Of a stretch of DNA of 56,801 bases, positions 7,199-36,487 are shown one piece after another. Origin of the DNA: an uncultured Acidimicrobiia bacterium (GTDB lineage: Bacteria; Actinomycetota; Acidimicrobiia; Spongiisociales; UBA4744); contig CAZQMF010000005.1 in assembly GCA_964594235.1 (NCBI GenBank), positions 1 to 56,801 on the forward strand, written 5' to 3'. Below the pieces are notes generated by a model. The model worked only from the letters and a program-made list of their open reading frames with translations, ran no database searches and was not told the origin of the DNA. The stretch's first letter is position 1. Each line of letters opens with the position of its first letter. The position numbers and the translations under genes are program-made.

Positions 7199-8800
7199 AT
7201 GGACTGGTACAAGGATGCGATCTTCTACGAAACCCACATCCGCTCCTTCTACGACTCGAACGGTGACGGCTTTGGCGACCTTCGGGGTCTGACCTCGAGA
7301 CTCGACTACCTGGTCGATCTCGGCATCACCGCCATCTGGCTCCTGCCCTTCTACCCGTCACCCCTCAGGGACGACGGGTACGACGTCGCCGATTACACGT
7401 CGATCGATCCGAGATACGGGACGATCGGCGACTTCACGGCTCTCCTCGCCGAGGCGCACCGACGGAACCTCAGAATCGTCACCGAGCTGATCGTCAACCA
7501 CACCTCCGATCAGCACCCGTGGTTCCAACGAGCACGACGTGCGCCGGTCGGTTCGATCGAACGGAACTTCTACGTGTGGAGCGACTCGCCGGACCGATAC
7601 CCCGACACACGCATCATCTTCACCGACAGCGAGGACTCGAACTGGGCATGGGATCAGATCGCAGGTGCCTACTACTGGCATCGATTCTTCTCCCATCAGC
7701 CGGATCTCAACTACGACAACCCTGCCGTTCGCCAGGCGGTGCTCGACGCGATGGACTTCTGGCTCGACCTCGGCGTCGACGGGTTGCGCCTGGATGCGGT
7801 CCCCTACCTGTATGAACGCGACGGCACCAACTGCGAGAACCTGCCCGAAACGCATGCCGAGCTGAAGCACATCCGCTCACACATGGACACGAAATATCGG
7901 GATCGAATGCTGCTCGCCGAGGCCAACCAGTGGCCCGGCGACGCGGTCGAGTACTTCGGGGAGGGTGACGAGAGCCACATGAACTACCACTTCCCGCTGA
8001 TGCCCCGCCTGTTCCTCGCGTTGGCACGCAGTGATCGGGGGCCTATCGAGTGGATCCTCGATCGCACTCCAGAGATCCCCACCTCGGCTCAGTGGGGCAT
8101 CTTCCTTCGGAACCACGATGAGCTGACCTTGGAGATGGTCACCGAGGAGGAGCGGGCCGAGATGTACGCCTTCTACGCCAGGGACCCTCGCGCCAAGCTC
8201 AACGTCGGTATCAGGAGGCGTCTCGCGCCGCTGCTCGACAATGATCCGCGGCGGCTCCGTCTCATGTTCTCCCTTCTGCTTGGTCTGCCCGGGAGCCCGT
8301 TCATCTACTACGGCGACGAACTTGGCATGGGTGACGATCTGAAGCTTCCCGACAGGGACGGCGTTCGGACCCCCATGCAGTGGGATGGATCCCGCAACGG
8401 CGGGTTCTCGACCTCGAGCGAGACGTTCGCCCCGATCATCGACGACGACGTGTTCGGGTATCGAGCGGTGAACGTGGCTGCGGCCGTCGGCGATGAGTCC
8501 TCACTGTGGCATTGGATTCGAAAGGCGATCGCGATCCGGCAGCGGCACCCGGCGTTCGGGCGGGGATCGGTCGAGTTCCTGCGTCCGTCGGACTCGGCGG
8601 TGCTCGCGTTTGCCCTCCACTACGAGCAGGACTCTGTGGTCGTCGTTGCGAATCTGTCCGACAGTGTCCGTCGCGCAGACGTTGGTGTCGAGGGGATCGA
8701 CGAGTTCAGTGGCACGAGGTACACAGGGCAACCGCTCGAGATCGAACCGTACGGCTACCGCTGGATCACTCGGCTTCCGGTGGGCGGCGAAGGCGCTTGA
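7199..8800 (+). CDS. treS: Trehalose synthase / maltose alpha-D-glucosyltransferase (GH13)
   Basis: WYKDAIFYE, YPSPLRDDGYD, FFSHQPDLN, GLRLDAVPY, LLAEANQW, FLRNHDELTLE, LNVGIRRRLAPL. Confidence 0.93.
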   Translation: MDWYKDAIFYETHIRSFYDSNGDGFGDLRGLTSRLDYLVDLGITAIWLLPFYPSPLRDDGYDVADYTSIDPRYGTIGDFTALLAEAHRRNLRIVTELIVNHTSDQHPWFQRARRAPVGSIERNFYVWSDSPDRYPDTRIIFTDSEDSNWAWDQIAGAYYWHRFFSHQPDLNYDNPAVRQAVLDAMDFWLDLGVDGLRLDAVPYLYERDGTNCENLPETHAELKHIRSHMDTKYRDRMLLAEANQWPGDAVEYFGEGDESHMNYHFPLMPRLFLALARSDRGPIEWILDRTPEIPTSAQWGIFLRNHDELTLEMVTEEERAEMYAFYARDPRAKLNVGIRRRLAPLLDNDPRRLRLMFSLLLGLPGSPFIYYGDELGMGDDLKLPDRDGVRTPMQWDGSRNGGFSTSSETFAPIIDDDVFGYRAVNVAAAVGDESSLWHWIRKAIAIRQRHPAFGRGSVEFLRPSDSAVLAFALHYEQDSVVVVANLSDSVRRADVGVEGIDEFSGTRYTGQPLEIEPYGYRWITRLPVGGEGA

Positions 8801-30513: not shown

Positions 30514-33243
30514 TCACTTGACCGGGTTCGTGAGACCGGGCAGGTCGATCAGTTCGGGCGTCCATCCCGACTCGACCGGATTGACGCGGATCCTCGCGTC
30601 GACCAGCGACACTCCTTCACCGGGTGCGAGCACCTTGACGGGGTTGAGGTCCATCTCGGAGATCTCCGGAACCGCTTCGGCGAGTGCCGAAACCCGCAGG
30701 ATCACCTGTTCGAGGGCCGCAACGTCCGCGGGCGGTGTCGATCGGTACCCGTCCAGGAGCTTGGCCGACTTGATCGATCGCACCATCTCCGCAGCTTCGA
30801 GATCCGTAACGGGGTTCAGGCGAAACGCGACATCGCCGACGAGCTCCACAAGCACTCCACCCATACCGAAGACGATGAGTGGACCGAATGCCGGATCCTC
30901 GGTCATGCCGACGAGCACCTCCAGTCCGCCTTCGATCATCTCCTGCACCATCACGCCGGTCGCATCGTTGGTGAGACTCATCAGCCGTTTGAACGTCTCA
31001 CGGACCTCCTTGTCCCCTTCGACATGCAGAGCGACGCCGCCGACGTCCGACTTGTGGAGCGCGGAGGGCGACACCAGCTTCATCGCAACGGGACGGCCGA
31101 GCTTCTTCGCGAACTCGACGGCGCCGGAGGCATCAGACACCGTTGTCGAGGCCGGGAGGCACAGGCCGAACTCGCTCAAGATCTCACCGACTTCGTCCGG
31201 CTCGAGCCAGCCGCCGGAGCCACCCAGCCGCTCGAGCGCCTTCTGTGCTACCTCGCGTGCGGCCTCGGGTTTGACGTCGTCGAAGACAGGGACGGTCCCT
31301 TCGGGCTTGGCGAGCCACTCCCCGTGGCGAACCACCCTGGAAAGAGCAACCGCCGCCGCCTCGGGGAACCTGTAGCTGGGGATCTTGACCCGGTCGTCCG
31401 AGAGCAGTTCGGCTGCATTGCCCGCAGACATGAAGACCGAAAGGAGCGTCTTGTCACCCTTGTAGCCGGCCGCGGTGTCCCGAATGACTTCCGCGATCAC
31501 CCGCTCGGCACCCGGTGTCGTCGGGATGTAGCTCACGATGAGCGCGTCGATCTCGTCCGAGGCGAGCATGGTCTCGATCTCATGTCGGTACTCCTCCGGT
31601 CCCGCCGAGGCGATCATGTCGACGGGGTTCCTCGTCGACGCTTCGGCGGAAAGCCCTTCGGCGAGTGCGGCCCTGAGGGTCGCTGAGAACTCGGGCACCT
31701 CCAAACCGTGCGACTCGAGGGCGTCCGCGGCAAGGATGCCCGGTCCCCCGGCGTTTGTGAGGATCCCCACTCGCTTGCCCTTCGGAATCGGCTGGCTCGC
31801 GAGAAGCACCGCAACGTCGAACAGCTCCTCCAAGGTCGCCGTCCGGATCACGCCCGCCTGGTGGAAGAGGGCGTCGACCGCAACGTCGACCGACGCAAGT
31901 GCGCCGGTGTGGCTGCTTGCGGCCCTCGTCCCTGCTTTCGTTCGTCCCGATTTCACGGCGACGATCGGCTTTTTGCGAGCGATGCGCCGCGCGAGCCGAC
32001 CGAACCGTCGAGGATTGCCGAACGACTCGAGGTACAGCACGATGACGTCAGTGTTGGGATCACCCTCCCAGTACAGGAGCAGGTCGTTTCCGGAGATGTC
32101 GGCCTTGTTGCCCACAGATACGAACGAAGAGATCCCGATCGCGTTTCGGTTGGCGTAGTCGAGGATCGCGATCCCCAAAGCGCCGGACTGACTTGACATG
32201 GCCACGTTGCCTGGCGTTGGGAAGAACGGCGAAAACTGCCCATCGACGACAATCCTCGGGTCCGTATTGAGAACTCCCATGCAGTTCGGACCGACCATGC
32301 GCATGCCCGCAGCTCGAACCGTTTCGACGAGCTCACGTTCGAGGGCCGCACCTTCGGGCCCGATCTCGGAAAACCCCGCCGAGATCACGACGACACCCTT
32401 GACACCCTTCTCGGCGCAATCCTTCACGGCTGGGATCACCAGCGGCGCCGGCACCACGATGAACGCCAGGTCGATCGGGTCCGGAATCTCAGAGACAGTC
32501 TTGTAGGCACGAACGGAGTGCACGTAGGCTGCGGCCGGGTTCACCGGGTAGATGGGACCCGAGAACCGACCCTGGATCAGGTTGTGGAACAGGCGTCCAC
32601 CGATCGACTCGGAGTTGCGGCTCGCACCGATCACGGCAATCGACCGCGGGTAGAAGATCGGGTTCAGTGAGGTGGCGATGGCCCGTCGTTCGCGTTCCTG
32701 CTCAGCCGCCCTCGTTCCCTCCGACTGCGCTACGGGGAAGGCGACGCTGTAGACGCCCTCCTCCATCGTCCGCTCGATCTTGTAGCCGGAGTGTCGAAAC
32801 ATCCGGATCATCTGTACGTTGTCGGGGAGCACAAGGGCTTTGAACCCGCGAATGCCATGGGTACGGGCGTACGCGGTCATCAGCTGCAACAGCTGTGTTC
32901 CGATCCCCCGGTTCTGGTGGGCATCGACGACGGCGAACGCAACCTCGGCTTGGTCGGGTTCGTCTTGATCGCGGTCATACCTCCCGACGCCGATCATCTT
33001 GCCCTCGAGAAGGACGGCGAATGCCATACGGTTCTCGTAGTCGACGTTGGTGAAGTAGTCGAGCTCGGTTGACGAAAGATCGTCTTTCTCCTGGAAGAAG
33101 CGGAAGTAGCGTGACCTCTGCCCCATCCCCTGAAACAGCTCATAGAGGCGTTCTCGATCGTCTGGCACGATTGGTCTGACACGGACGACGCCGCCGTCTC
33201 TCAGCACGGCGTCGACGACGAATTCGGTGGGATACTCGGCCAT
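30514..33243 (-). CDS. GNAT acetyltransferase fused to ADP-forming acyl-CoA ligase alpha+beta domains (PatA-like architecture)
   Basis: N-terminal GNAT (AEVAF, QNRGIG); CoA-binding IAVIGAS, GPNCMG, SQSG, GNKAD; SSHTGALA; TNAGGPG; ATP-grasp HKSDVGGV, FGPLIVFG, DLNPV. Confidence 0.92.
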   Translation of the reverse strand: MAEYPTEFVVDAVLRDGGVVRVRPIVPDDRERLYELFQGMGQRSRYFRFFQEKDDLSSTELDYFTNVDYENRMAFAVLLEGKMIGVGRYDRDQDEPDQAEVAFAVVDAHQNRGIGTQLLQLMTAYARTHGIRGFKALVLPDNVQMIRMFRHSGYKIERTMEEGVYSVAFPVAQSEGTRAAEQERERRAIATSLNPIFYPRSIAVIGASRNSESIGGRLFHNLIQGRFSGPIYPVNPAAAYVHSVRAYKTVSEIPDPIDLAFIVVPAPLVIPAVKDCAEKGVKGVVVISAGFSEIGPEGAALERELVETVRAAGMRMVGPNCMGVLNTDPRIVVDGQFSPFFPTPGNVAMSSQSGALGIAILDYANRNAIGISSFVSVGNKADISGNDLLLYWEGDPNTDVIVLYLESFGNPRRFGRLARRIARKKPIVAVKSGRTKAGTRAASSHTGALASVDVAVDALFHQAGVIRTATLEELFDVAVLLASQPIPKGKRVGILTNAGGPGILAADALESHGLEVPEFSATLRAALAEGLSAEASTRNPVDMIASAGPEEYRHEIETMLASDEIDALIVSYIPTTPGAERVIAEVIRDTAAGYKGDKTLLSVFMSAGNAAELLSDDRVKIPSYRFPEAAAVALSRVVRHGEWLAKPEGTVPVFDDVKPEAAREVAQKALERLGGSGGWLEPDEVGEILSEFGLCLPASTTVSDASGAVEFAKKLGRPVAMKLVSPSALHKSDVGGVALHVEGDKEVRETFKRLMSLTNDATGVMVQEMIEGGLEVLVGMTEDPAFGPLIVFGMGGVLVELVGDVAFRLNPVTDLEAAEMVRSIKSAKLLDGYRSTPPADVAALEQVILRVSALAEAVPEISEMDLNPVKVLAPGEGVSLVDARIRVNPVESGWTPELIDLPGLTNPVK

Positions 33244-33312
33244 TCACCCTCCTTGTACCCTCGATTCTGGCACGATCGATGGCACCCTCGGGCGGAACGG
33301 TATCGTGCCCAC

Positions 33313-34425
33313 ATGAGTGTGATCGCGATCCCCTTCACCGACGAGCCCGCGTCGACCGTGGTAGCAAACGTCGAAACGGCAGCAAGTCACCCGAAAGTCG
33401 ACCGGGTGCTGTGTGTCGGATCGAAACGCAACGCAACGTTCGAGGAACTCGAAGCGATCCAGTCTCCCGACATCATTGTCATGACGCAGCAGAGGCTCGG
33501 CTCGAAGCGCCCGGGCAAGGGCGACGCTATGAACACGGCTCTGCTGCACTTCCTGGATCACACCGAGTCGGACCGGATCCACTTCTACGACGCCGACATC
33601 ACCAACTTCGACTCGACCTGGATTGACCGTGCCGAGGCGGCCGCAGACACGGGCGTCGATGTCGTCCGGCACTCGTTTCCAAGGGCCTCGACGGACGCGA
33701 TGATCACATGGATGATCACCCGTTTCGGTTTCGCCGTACTCTGGCCCGACACCGAGCTCCCCACGATCGGACAGCCGCTGGGAGGGGAACTGCTGCTCAA
33801 GAGAGCGTCGGCCGAGACACTCGCGACCGATCCGCGCGTCATCGACCGCAGCGATTGGGGAATCGATACGCTGTACACCTTTGCCGTGGTTCAGGCCGGG
33901 CTCAGCCTCCACGAGACCTTCATCCCCGAAGGCAAACGGCATCGCCTGTACGGCAGCCTTCGCGAATTGTCCACGATGCTCAACGAGTGCTTCGGGGCAC
34001 TTCAGTCGCTCGCCGGCGAAACCGTACCGACGGGCACACCCCACCAGGCGACTCCCCCGACCCCGCCTGTCGGAGGGGTCGCGTCGGCCGTCGGGTACTC
34101 GGTCGATGACACGATCGGCCTTCTTCGGCTCGGTTGGACCGAACGTCAGATGCAACTCCTGGGCCTGTTCCCTCGCGAGGTTCAGTCGGGAATGGGCGCG
34201 CTCCGGGACTACCCGTCAGTCGGTTTCATGGACGAGGACACCTGGTACGAGACTTTCCTCCGGCTCCTCACCCACTACGACGCCGACGATGCCGACTGGC
34301 ACGAGCTGCTGTTCCGGCTCTGGGTCGTTCGGGTTCTCAACTACACGTTCACCGAGGCCATGAGAGGCCACGCCGCCGCCACCAGCTATCTCGAAGGGAT
34401 GATCGAGCGAGCGATGAGAACGTAG
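33313..34425 (+). CDS. mgs: Mannosylglycerate synthase (GT78)
   Basis: Collinear with my recollection of Rhodothermus marinus MGS: RPGKGDAMNTAL, IHFYDADIT, FPRASTDAMITWMITR, QPLGGELL, SDWGIDTLYTF, IPEGKRHRLYG, RVLNYT. Confidence 0.9.
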   Translation: MSVIAIPFTDEPASTVVANVETAASHPKVDRVLCVGSKRNATFEELEAIQSPDIIVMTQQRLGSKRPGKGDAMNTALLHFLDHTESDRIHFYDADITNFDSTWIDRAEAAADTGVDVVRHSFPRASTDAMITWMITRFGFAVLWPDTELPTIGQPLGGELLLKRASAETLATDPRVIDRSDWGIDTLYTFAVVQAGLSLHETFIPEGKRHRLYGSLRELSTMLNECFGALQSLAGETVPTGTPHQATPPTPPVGGVASAVGYSVDDTIGLLRLGWTERQMQLLGLFPREVQSGMGALRDYPSVGFMDEDTWYETFLRLLTHYDADDADWHELLFRLWVVRVLNYTFTEAMRGHAAATSYLEGMIERAMRT

Positions 34426-34436
34426 ACGTTCTCATC

Positions 34437-34544
34437 GGTCATCCGTTTTCGGTTGTCAGTCGTCGGTATGAACGCGGCCGAACACCGTGAGGGACAGCAC
34501 GGCGAGTTTCTTACCGAGAACCGAGGACCGACAACTGAAGACCG
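34437..34544. repeat. Heptamer-armed repeat E6
   Basis: GGTCATC CGTTTTC GGTTGTC AGTCGTC GGT-ATGAACGCGGCC ... GGCGAGTTTCTT-ACCGAGA ACCGAGG ACCGACA ACTGAAG ACCG. Confidence 0.85.
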
Positions 34545-34564
34545 CCCACAGGGCGGGCGGTACC

Positions 34565-36487
34565 ATGCGGTCCATGGACGATGTCGTGTGGACCCCATCC
34601 GACCCCGAGTCCAGTCTGCTACATCGATTCATGTCGCAGCTCTCAACACGACCGGCTTCATACGACGAACTCTGGCACTGGTCGATCGACCATCGCTCGG
34701 AGTTCTGGCAATCCGTCTGGCAGTTTGCCGGCGTGGTCGCATCCCGGCCGGCGTCGGTCCCGATTGGTGTCGAAGCGATGCCTGGAACCGAATGGTTTCC
34801 CGACGCTCTTCTCAACTACGCAGAGAACCTGCTGCAACGGCGAGACGACGGGATTGCGGTCATCGCCGCAGGTGAAGGACGGCCCACCGAGCGAATCACG
34901 TGGGCCGAACTCGCCCGCCGGGTAGCTCGCGTGCAGGCCGGTCTCGTCGCCCTGGGCGTGGAGGCAGGAGACAGAGTCGCGGCCCTGATTCCGAACTCCT
35001 CGTTCGCCGTCATCGGGATGCTCGCGACCGCTGCGATCGGGGCGATCTGGTCGTCGTGTTCGCCGGACTTCGGTCCACTCGGGGTGATCGACCGGTTCAG
35101 CCAGATCCGACCGAAGGTGTTGATCGCTGCGGACGGGTACCGCTACAACGGCCGGGCGCACGTCCTCGAGGACACCGTGCGATCGGTGACTGGGGCGCTC
35201 TCAGACCTACGAAGTCTGATCCTCGTCGACTTCGTCGGAGCGCCATGGCACCTCGACGGCGTTCCGACGATCTCGTGGTCCGATCTCGAGGCCGGCTCGG
35301 CAGCGGAGCCCCGATTCGCGCAACTCCCCTTCGACCACCCCCTGTTCATCATGTACTCCTCAGGAACCACCGGTCCCCCGAAGAGCATCGTTCACGGTTC
35401 CGGCGGAACGCTCCTGAAACACCTCTCGGAGCATCAGCTCCACTCAGACGTTCGCCCGGGAGACGTCGTCTTCTGGTTCAGCACGTGCGGGTGGATGATG
35501 TGGAACTGGCTCGTTACCGCGCTCGCTTCTCGTGCGACGATCGTCGTCTACGACGGAAGCCCTGCTCATCCCGACCTTCGTGTGCTTTGGCGCCTCGCGG
35601 AGGAAGCGGGCATCACTCACTTCGGAACGAGCCCGAAGTTCCTGTCCGCGAACGCCAACGCAGGGGTCATCCCAGCCCAGAACGTCGATCTCTCGGCGAT
35701 GCGTTGGCTTGGTTCGACGGGCATGCCACTCAACCCGGAGCAGTTCGACTGGGTGTACGAGAACGTCAAACGAGACATCCAACTCGCATCGATCTCCGGC
35801 GGCACCGACATCATCGGATGCTTCGCTCTCGGGGTCCCGATCCTGCCGGTCCGGCGTGGACAGCTTCAGGCGCGGGCGCTCGGCATGGCAGTAGAGTCGT
35901 GGGACGACGACGGTGTCGCCCACGTAGGCCGCAAAGGTGAGCTGGTCTGCACGAAGCCATTCCCGTCGATGCCGGTGTCATTCTGGAACGATCCGACCGG
36001 CGAACGCTATCGCAAGGCCTACTTCGAGCAGTACCCCGGCGTGTGGACGCACGGCGACTTCATCGAGATCCGGCCCGAGGGTGGCGTCATCATCTACGGC
36101 CGGTCGGACACCACGCTCAACCCGTCCGGTGTGCGGATCGGAACCGCAGAGATCTACCGTGCGATCGAGACGATGCCGGAGATCGAAGACTCGATCGTCG
36201 TCGGCCACCAAACCGCCGACAACGTCGAGGTCGTTCTGTGCGTGAAGCTCGCAACGGGACATCGACTCGACGACGCCCTCAGGGACGCGATCAAGCACCG
36301 GATCAGATCGGAAACGTCCCCCCGCCACGTTCCCCGACACGTCTTCCAGGTCGATTCCATCCCCTACACGCTGAGCGGCAAGAAGGTGGAGAAGGCGGTC
36401 CGGAAGTCACTTGCGGGCGAACCGGTGTCCAACGCCGACGCGCTCATCAACCCGGAATCCCTCGAGCAGTACCGACATCTCTTCTAG
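34565..36487 (+). CDS. aacS: Acetoacetate-CoA ligase
   Basis: EWFPDALLNYAENLL, CSPDFG, MYSSGTTGPPKSIVH, GWMMWNW, ISGGTD, WTHGD, GRSDTTLNPSGVRIGTAEIY, PYTLSGKKVE. Confidence 0.93.
   Translation: MRSMDDVVWTPSDPESSLLHRFMSQLSTRPASYDELWHWSIDHRSEFWQSVWQFAGVVASRPASVPIGVEAMPGTEWFPDALLNYAENLLQRRDDGIAVIAAGEGRPTERITWAELARRVARVQAGLVALGVEAGDRVAALIPNSSFAVIGMLATAAIGAIWSSCSPDFGPLGVIDRFSQIRPKVLIAADGYRYNGRAHVLEDTVRSVTGALSDLRSLILVDFVGAPWHLDGVPTISWSDLEAGSAAEPRFAQLPFDHPLFIMYSSGTTGPPKSIVHGSGGTLLKHLSEHQLHSDVRPGDVVFWFSTCGWMMWNWLVTALASRATIVVYDGSPAHPDLRVLWRLAEEAGITHFGTSPKFLSANANAGVIPAQNVDLSAMRWLGSTGMPLNPEQFDWVYENVKRDIQLASISGGTDIIGCFALGVPILPVRRGQLQARALGMAVESWDDDGVAHVGRKGELVCTKPFPSMPVSFWNDPTGERYRKAYFEQYPGVWTHGDFIEIRPEGGVIIYGRSDTTLNPSGVRIGTAEIYRAIETMPEIEDSIVVGHQTADNVEVVLCVKLATGHRLDDALRDAIKHRIRSETSPRHVPRHVFQVDSIPYTLSGKKVEKAVRKSLAGEPVSNADALINPESLEQYRHLF

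What the first reader, a model, noticed from the sequence alone, without database searches (positions are those of the whole stretch)
33313..34425. Rare GT78 single-step mannosylglycerate synthase
Motif-for-motif match to Rhodothermus marinus MGS. As I recall, this family is otherwise known mainly from red algae, some early land plants and fungi, while most prokaryotes use the two-step MpgS/MpgP route. A copy in a probable actinobacterium bears on the origin and horizontal transfer of GT78. With treS it suggests a salt- or heat-stressed habitat.
Basis: partly seen in the sequence, partly recalled or inferred. Interest (0 to 1): 0.55.

Follow-up and report, generated by a model that had tools for sequence, protein, structure and literature searches.

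The report
Ordinary mannosylglycerate synthase gene in Acidimicrobiia
The flagged gene is a genuine, intact one-step mannosylglycerate synthase (it makes a stress-protecting sugar acid), but it is a standard, inherited gene of this group of uncultured Acidimicrobiia and is already labelled in public databases, so it is not a rarity.

Summary
Window 33313-34425 (+) encodes a 370-aa protein with both mannosylglycerate synthase (MGS) domains. It matches Rhodothermus marinus MGS (GT78, PDB 2bo4) end to end (E 4e-120, 52% identity). All 15 checked ligand and catalytic residues are kept, and dN/dS against a same-genus copy is 0.20.

"Rare" does not hold for this lineage. The genome is an Acidimicrobiia MAG. 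The gene was found in:
- 4 of 4 other genomes of its genus
- 16 of 19 of its family, always head-to-head with the same Pat-like gene
- 47 of 109 sampled genomes of its order

It was not found in about 290 other Acidimicrobiia, and the only 2 carriers among 400 sampled Actinomycetota belong to the same order. Elsewhere it occurs in Bipolaricaulota, Gemmatimonadota, Desulfohalobiaceae and others. At least 906 protein clusters (90% identity) exist, many already named "mannosylglycerate synthase". The two-step GT55 enzyme is the rare one here (1 of 40 relatives).

GDP-mannose supply (ManC) is present in the genus. treS is real but 24.5 kb away and unlinked. The inference of a salt- or heat-stressed habitat is unsupported.

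This scan has reported the same gene in at least 44 other genomes, with the same conclusion. Verdict: an ordinary new member of a known family, of low interest.

The parts
33313..34425 (+). mgs gene: 370-aa GT78 mannosylglycerate synthase (stop codon included)
   Evidence: ORF list and translation. Pfam MGS_GT + MGS_C. PDB 2bo4 at E 4e-120, full length. The identical protein occurs on 12 public contigs.
33316..34008 (+). GT-A catalytic domain (residues 2-232). It holds the D93-A-D95 motif, the metal ligand H210, the guanine contact Q59, the ribose contact E11 and the glycerate contacts I131/T132.
   Evidence: Pfam PF21969 covers profile positions 1-239 of 239. Residue mapping against the Rhodothermus sequence across 89 homologues. 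Roles of the residues from PMC2581804.
34081..34404 (+). Helical C-terminal MGS_C domain (residues 257-364)
   Evidence: Pfam PF21967, E 5.1e-32, profile positions 2-110 of 110.
33244..33312 (.). 69-bp divergent intergenic region between the Pat-like gene and mgs. A TANNNT-type hexamer TATCGT lies at 33301-33306, 6 nt before the ATG, and mgs has no Shine-Dalgarno sequence. The CCCTCCTT block is the ribosome site of the Pat-like gene on the other strand.
   Evidence: Sequence. The alignment with same-genus and same-family loci keeps GGTA..GTG before the start and the GATTCTG.CACGA block. The sigma-70 consensus scan found nothing. A leaderless transcript is an inference, not shown.
34485..34502 (+). 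Terminator-like hairpin with a T-rich tail, 60 nt after the mgs stop. It would make mgs monocistronic.
   Evidence: Consensus scan: 2 sites found against 0.9 expected, so the evidence is weak. The NCBIfam alignment of the next gene begins at residue 30-33 of the 666-aa frame. Public gene calls start it 139-205 nt after mgs. The hairpin is therefore probably intergenic.
30514..33243 (-). Conserved divergent neighbour, not part of the pathway: a 909-aa fusion of a GNAT domain with an ADP-forming acyl-CoA synthetase (Pat-like)
   Evidence: Pfam and NCBIfam. The same head-to-head pairing with mgs is seen in genera g1, g5 and g4 of the family.

Best explanation
The gene encodes a functional retaining GT-A glycosyltransferase of CAZy family GT78, an orthologue of Rhodothermus marinus mannosylglycerate synthase. 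It most likely binds GDP-mannose through Q59 (guanine), E11 (ribose) and a divalent metal held by D95 and H210. It most likely binds D-glycerate through the I131 main chain and the T132 side chain, and transfers mannose to O2 of glycerate with retention, giving alpha-mannosylglycerate in a single step without a phosphorylated intermediate. The product most likely serves as a cytoplasmic compatible solute. The gene is an old, vertically inherited gene of this Acidimicrobiia family and is common in its order. There the one-step route, not the two-step MpgS/MpgP route, is the usual way to this solute. Shown: homology, architecture, residue conservation, purifying selection, distribution and synteny. 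Inferred: substrates, product and physiological role.
For: Both MGS domains are present at full length. The match to the solved R. marinus enzyme is E 4e-120 over the whole chain. All 15 checked ligand and catalytic residues are kept, and most are invariant in 89 homologues (roles from PMC2581804). dN/dS is 0.195 (dN 0.101, dS 0.518) against the same-genus copy, so the gene is under purifying selection. Mannose-1-phosphate guanylyltransferase (TIGR01479, 433-446 bits, cut-off 373) is present in three same-genus genomes and one same-family genome. In this MAG it appears as a fragment cut by the end of contig C11. A MOFRL-type glycerate 2-kinase gene is present, so glycerate is a metabolite of this cell. 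No GT55 MpgS and no GpgS above cut-off were found in this genome, which is 88% complete. On distribution, 20 of 40 relatives carry MGS_GT against 1 of 40 with GT55. Pat-mgs synteny is shared across three genera. One clade for the family's copies is not rejected (p-AU 0.216). A 7-residue deletion is shared only by genera g1 and g5.
Against: There is no biochemical or metabolite evidence for any Acidimicrobiia MGS, and no paper linking the two was found. R. marinus MGS is known to accept other donors and acceptors (my knowledge of Flint 2005 and Nielsen 2011; neither paper was held), so sequence alone does not fix the product. The genus has a long stem branch (about 0.45-0.5 changes per site). 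It also has a T in place of K9. By register with GpgS L52, that residue lines the floor of the base pocket (an inference from PMC2581804), and T occurs there in only 2 of 89 sequences. The gene evolves faster than its neighbours: 83% protein identity against 94% for the Pat-like gene within the genus. ManC is incomplete in this assembly. No MGH1-like hydrolase was found, so turnover of the solute is unexplained.
Confidence: 0.8

Rival explanations
1. The enzyme is a GT78 member with a shifted specificity in this genus. It might make glucosylglycerate, or use lactate or glycolate as the acceptor, rather than making mannosylglycerate.
For: The stem branch of genera g1 and g5 is long. The K9T change is confined to the genus, and a 7-residue loop deletion is shared with g5. 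The R. marinus enzyme is promiscuous (my knowledge). GlgC and GalU-like genes show that glucose nucleotides are available.
Against: Every residue named as contacting the sugar, the guanine or the glycerate carboxylate is unchanged, including Q59 (the guanine contact) and L156/W182/D185/M222 (the mannose pocket). ManC is conserved in the genus.
Confidence: 0.1
2. Mannosylglycerate is made, but as a precursor or storage form rather than a stress solute. Alternatively, the enzyme runs backwards (mannosylglycerate + GDP gives GDP-mannose + glycerate) to use imported solute.
For: No dedicated hydrolase was found, so some other route must recycle the compound. A glycerate 2-kinase is present. Earlier finding e1-4200208 is a lead only.
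Against: No sugar importer, further glycosyltransferase or phosphorylase lies next to the gene. Its neighbours are acyl-CoA metabolism genes and a sensor kinase. The gene looks monocistronic.
Confidence: 0.08
3. The gene is a recent horizontal acquisition, or a decaying remnant, in this genome.
For: Copies in G012 and G018 of the same family are broken by a stop or a frameshift. MGS trees mix phyla.
Against: The frame is intact, dN/dS is 0.20 and local GC (0.61-0.64) matches the window. Synteny is shared across three genera. The tree groups the gene with its own genus and family (98-100 support). The identical protein is found in several independent metagenomes.
Confidence: 0.02

Closest known systems
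Rhodothermus marinus mannosylglycerate synthase (MGS; CAZy GT78; PDB 2bo4, 2bo6-8, 2y4j-m)
   Same: Same two-domain architecture and nearly the same length. Identity is 52% end to end. The DXD motif, the His metal ligand, the guanine, ribose, mannose and glycerate contacts, and the QPLGGELL loop carrying the L163 carbonyl are all identical.
   Different: It lacks 7 residues of the loop at R. marinus 51-57 and the roughly 20-residue C-terminal tail. It has T for K9. The host is an uncultured Acidimicrobiia bacterium of unknown growth temperature, and no GT55 two-step pathway was found beside it, whereas R. marinus has both routes (Borges 2004, cited in PMC8490865). It has not been characterised.
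Uncharacterised MGS homologues of Acidimicrobiia and Bipolaricaulota MAGs, labelled 'mannosylglycerate synthase' by JGI and 'mannosylglycerate synthase domain-containing protein' by NCBI
   Same: Same family. Identity is 83% to the same-genus copy, 60% to a sister genus, and 52-54% to genus g4 and to Bipolaricaulota.
   Different: Nothing of substance. This is one more member, on a somewhat faster-evolving branch.
Two-step route: mannosyl-3-phosphoglycerate synthase (GT55, PF09488) plus MpgP phosphatase. Also the GT81 enzymes GpgS and Rubrobacter MpgS.
   Same: The end product is the same (GT55) or a related glyceryl glycoside (GT81). GT81 shares the GT-A fold and active-site layout (PMC2581804).
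   Different: These enzymes use 3-phosphoglycerate as acceptor and need a phosphatase. The window protein scores 30 bits against the GpgS model (cut-off 262). No GT55 gene was found in this genome.
Eukaryotic GT78 proteins (red algae, Selaginella, Physcomitrella, charophytes; PMC3342304)
   Same: Same family. A Closterium gene model is 43% identical to the window protein.
   Different: In the trees, the one eukaryotic sequence I could include sits inside a derived clade with Bipolaricaulota, Rhodothermus and others, not next to the window's clade.

Membership tests
GT78 mannosylglycerate synthase | Two-domain architecture: GT-A catalytic domain (MGS_GT) plus helical C-terminal domain (MGS_C) | tested here: met
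   PF21969 at 326.8 bits and PF21967 at 110.8 bits, both over the full profile (cut-offs 27).
GT78 mannosylglycerate synthase | Full-length sequence homology to the characterised R. marinus enzyme | tested here: met
   E 4e-120, residues 1-366 against 1-373. Identity 52%.
GT78 mannosylglycerate synthase | D-X-D motif and His metal ligand (D100, D102, H217), with the K76-D192 ion-pair network | tested here: met
   D93, D95, H210, K69 and D185 are present, and each is invariant in 89 of 89 homologues. Roles from PMC2581804.
GT78 mannosylglycerate synthase | GDP-donor contacts (Q66 guanine, E11 ribose) and the mannose pocket (L163, W189, M229) | tested here: met
   Q59, E11, L156, W182 and M222 are conserved. 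K9 is replaced by T, a genus-specific change of unknown effect.
GT78 mannosylglycerate synthase | Contacts to the carboxylate of unphosphorylated D-glycerate (I138 main chain, T139 side chain) | tested here: met
   I131 and T132 are conserved, each in 89 of 89 homologues.
GT78 mannosylglycerate synthase | Catalysis: GDP-mannose + D-glycerate gives alpha-mannosylglycerate + GDP | not testable with these tools
   This needs an enzyme assay. Indirect support: ManC is present in the genus and a glycerate 2-kinase is present in the genome.
GT55 MpgS (two-step route) | Osmo_MPGsynth domain (PF09488) | tested here: not met
   No match in the own genome (88% complete). Found in 1 of 40 relatives.
GT81 GpgS / MpgS | Score above the cut-off of NF010496 | tested here: not met
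   30.1 bits against a cut-off of 262 for the window protein. The best score elsewhere in the genome is 49.8 bits.

The most novel reading that the evidence does not exclude
One order of Acidimicrobiia may be the main and oldest bacterial reservoir of GT78. Its copies form several deep branches at the base of an outgroup-rooted tree. The Rhodothermus, Bipolaricaulota, Gemmatimonadota and (charophyte) eukaryotic enzymes nest in one derived clade. If so, the textbook R. marinus enzyme and the algal and plant genes would descend from transfers out of this lineage, where the one-step route is the normal path to mannosylglycerate. The root rests on outgroup branches 1.6-7.8 changes per site long, on a quick tree, and on a single eukaryotic gene model with a missing exon, so it is only a lead.
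Probability: 0.25. Interest if true: 0.4.

Novelty: new member of a known kind. Interest (0 to 1): 0.15.

Why it matters
Its importance is small. The result corrects a picture from the literature era, in which the only characterised prokaryotic GT78 was that of R. marinus. In fact one order of uncultured, mostly mesophile-associated Acidimicrobiia carries the single-step enzyme routinely and almost never the two-step one. This predicts mannosylglycerate as a common solute in soil and sediment Acidimicrobiia. It also offers many natural variants of an enzyme of biotechnological interest. None of this is special to this window.

Tried and rejected
- **Longer start.** The TTG start at 33253 adds 20 residues with no homology, and the alignments begin at M1 of the ATG frame.
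- **Pseudogene or recent transfer.** Rejected.
- **DNA-level linkage with treS.** treS lies at 7199-8800, 24.5 kb away and separated from mgs by genes of other functions, including cytochrome genes and PFOR.
- **Missing GDP-mannose supply.** The NTP_transferase search found only GlgC, a GalU-like gene, GlmU, an RfbF-like gene and MocA. TIGR01479 then found ManC in the genus and a fragment cut off at a contig end here, so the gap comes from the assembly.
- **Thermophily test.** The IVYWREL fraction is 0.411, which gives a nominal 50 C. The method has roughly 10 C of error and I know of an upward bias in GC-rich genomes, and I called the ORFs crudely, so the result is inconclusive. A median pI of 5.7 argues against a salt-in halophile.
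- **Habitat from sample numbers.** No paper holds the JGI sample numbers of the contigs that carry the identical protein.
- **Literature.** No paper was found linking mannosylglycerate synthesis to Acidimicrobiia. The Nielsen 2011 JBC paper is not held. A search on horizontal transfer and red algae gave nothing relevant.
- **Outgroup rooting.** I rooted with distant GT-A relatives at 24-27% identity. Their branches are too long for the root to be trusted.
- **Structure prediction.** Not run, because a solved structure at 52% identity covers the whole protein.

Full report
**What is there.** The frame at 33313-34425 (+) starts with ATG and encodes 370 residues. A TTG 60 nt upstream would add 20 residues, but nothing aligns to them.

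Pfam finds both domains that define mannosylglycerate synthase, each over its whole profile. MGS_GT scores E 9.7e-98 on residues 2-232, and MGS_C scores E 5.1e-32 on residues 257-364. NCBIfam offers only a sub-threshold hit to GpgS, at 30 bits against a cut-off of 262.

Among solved structures the only real match is R. marinus MGS (2bo4, 2y4j, 2y4k). It scores about E 4e-120 and covers residues 1-366 of the query and 1-373 of the chain.

**Active site.** I took the roles of the R. marinus residues from the comparison in PMC2581804:

| Role | R. marinus residue(s) |
|---|---|
| Ribose contact | E11 |
| Guanine contact | Q66 |
| Ion-pair network | K76, D100, D192 |
| Metal ligands | D102, H217 |
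| Glycerate carboxylate contacts | I138, T139 |
| Carbonyl on the beta face | L163 |
| Sugar pocket | W189, M229 |
| Near the phosphates | Y220 |

I aligned 89 homologues, numbered by a Rhodothermus MAG sequence that begins like the crystallised protein. Every one of these residues is conserved in the window protein, as are R131 and D135. Most are invariant across the whole set.

Two features are peculiar to the window's branch. T replaces K9 in only 2 of 89 sequences, both from this genus. A 7-residue deletion in the loop at R. marinus 51-57 is shared only with the sister genus g5.

Against the same-genus copy, dN is 0.101 and dS 0.518, a ratio of 0.195. This is clear purifying selection, though looser than on the Pat-like neighbour (0.04) and similar to the acetoacetate-CoA ligase (0.15).

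**Whose genome.** The window is contig C5 of a 1.94-Mb MAG in 155 contigs, 88% complete.

Loci found independently by name and by anonymous handle coincide. G013 is 'Acidimicrobiia bacterium UBA4744' and belongs to the same family. G004 is MFD02923.bin.2.53 and belongs to the same genus. G008 is SRR13309659_concoct_16 and belongs to the same family.

**How common is the gene.** These counts use the MGS_GT profile.

| Sample | Genomes with a strong match |
|---|---|
| Other genomes of the genus | 4 of 4 |
| The family | 16 of 19 |
| Same order, within an even sample of 400 genomes of the class | 47 of 109 |
| Rest of that class sample | 0 of about 291 |
| Even sample of 400 Actinomycetota | 2, both in this order |

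- The three family genomes without a match are 89%, 77% and 52% complete. Two of the 16 matches are broken copies.
- By family within the order, the counts are f1 5/5, f4 36/48, f6 3/3, f12 2/9, f9 1/12 and 0/32 in the other three. All 47 scored E 1e-70 or better.
- In the rest of the class only weak hits appeared (E above 1e-7), presumably to other GT-A proteins.
- The f4 count includes one genome flagged as unpublished (G286). Without it the count is 35/47.

Outside the phylum, a pattern-limited scan of one genome per GTDB species returned 110 relatives. By record title they come from Bipolaricaulota/Acetothermia, Rhodothermus, Gemmatimonadota, Desulfohalobiaceae, Aerophobetes, Sumerlaeota, KSB1, Pirellulaceae and a Micromonospora isolate. 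Some are in bins labelled Acidobacteriota, Gammaproteobacteria or Clostridia.

The 5.8-billion-protein collection holds at least 906 clusters at 90% identity with E of 1e-20 or better. Many are already named 'mannosylglycerate synthase' (JGI) or 'mannosylglycerate synthase domain-containing protein [Acidimicrobiia bacterium]' (NCBI). The exact window protein is on 12 contigs from several metagenomes.

The family is nevertheless compact. Among 1.84 billion representatives at 50% identity, only 105 match, and about a dozen of those are full length. GT78 is thus a narrow family that is frequent in a few lineages.

**Inheritance.** The gene sits head-to-head with a 909-aa fusion of a GNAT domain and an ADP-forming acyl-CoA synthetase. 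The same pairing occurs in genera g1, g5 and g4 of the family. In g1 and g5 the downstream acetoacetate-CoA ligase and sensor kinase are also shared.

In both trees the window groups with its genus (100) and then with g5 (98-99). The g4 copies form a separate well-supported clade in an unresolved region. Forcing all family copies into one clade is not rejected (p-AU 0.216). Vertical descent within the family is the simplest reading.

Across phyla the tree is mixed. Acidimicrobiia occupy several deep branches. Bipolaricaulota, Rhodothermus, Gemmatimonadota and a Closterium (charophyte) gene model fall in one derived clade (96) when rooted on distant GT-A relatives. That root depends on very long branches and a quick search, so I treat it as a lead only.

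**Pathway context.**
- No GT55 MpgS, no GpgS above cut-off and no MGH1-like hydrolase were found in this 88%-complete genome.
- GT55 occurs in 1 of 40 relatives, against 20 of 40 with MGS. In this order the one-step route is therefore the norm.
- The NTP-transferase genes found are GlgC, a GalU-like gene, GlmU, an RfbF-like gene and MocA.
- ManC (TIGR01479) is complete in three same-genus genomes and one same-family genome. In this MAG it is a fragment at the very end of contig C11.
- A MOFRL-type glycerate 2-kinase is present.

**Expression signals (weak).** The 69-bp divergent spacer has no Shine-Dalgarno sequence for mgs. It has a TANNNT-type hexamer 6 nt before the ATG, and the equivalent position is kept in relatives. 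This suggests a leaderless mRNA.

A terminator-like hairpin follows the gene at 34485-34502. It probably lies in the true spacer before the ligase gene, whose homology starts about 27-30 codons into the long frame.

**Habitat.** treS is real but unlinked. The relatives' record names point to soils, sands, sediments and a salt lake.

The IVYWREL index gives a nominal 50 C, but the error is large and my ORF calls were crude. A median pI of 5.7 argues against a salt-in strategy. I could not resolve the sample numbers. The inference of a salt- or heat-stressed habitat remains untested.

**Earlier notes of this scan.** Forty-five findings in at least 44 genomes mention a GT78 MGS. Follow-ups on other Acidimicrobiia windows reached the same verdict. 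I reached mine from my own searches before reading them.

**Verdict.** The gene is an ordinary, uncharacterised member of a known enzyme family.

Noticed in passing
window 7199-8800 (+): A true trehalose synthase (maltose alpha-D-glucosyltransferase): TIGR02456 at 798 bits (cut-off 678), with alpha-amylase and Malt_amylase_C domains. It lies 24.5 kb from mgs and is not linked to it.
   Followed up: partly
window 34487-36487 (+), probable true start near 34565: The gene after mgs is an acetoacetate-CoA ligase (TIGR01217 at 846 bits, cut-off 521). The long GTG frame probably over-extends the N-terminus by about 26 codons. Public gene calls differ (618, 640 or 346 aa).
   Followed up: partly
G012:C2:120611-121267 and G018:C11:89455-90169 (same family, genus g4): The MGS copies in two relatives are split by a stop or a frameshift. 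These are either decaying genes or assembly errors.
   Followed up: no
G007:C188:14305-15450: One family member carries a GT55 mannosyl-3-phosphoglycerate synthase (E 1e-144) in addition to MGS, so it has both routes, as R. marinus does.
   Followed up: no
G000:C11:36507-36740: The mannose-1-phosphate guanylyltransferase gene of this MAG is cut off by the contig end. Only profile positions 277-354 are present.
   Followed up: yes
P0005 (Closterium sp. NIES-64, CAI5974238.1): This charophyte GT78 gene model lacks about 30 residues around the W189/D192 block and carries a 320-residue proline-rich tail. The model is probably mis-predicted (a missed exon and read-through).
   Followed up: no
L069, L077, L063, L084, L086, L087, L050, L018, L019: MGS genes in bins labelled Acidobacteriota, Gammaproteobacteria, Clostridia, Neomarinimicrobiota or Caldisericota sit among near-identical Acidimicrobiia, Aerophobetes or Bipolaricaulota sequences. 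This suggests mislabelled bins rather than gene transfer.
   Followed up: no
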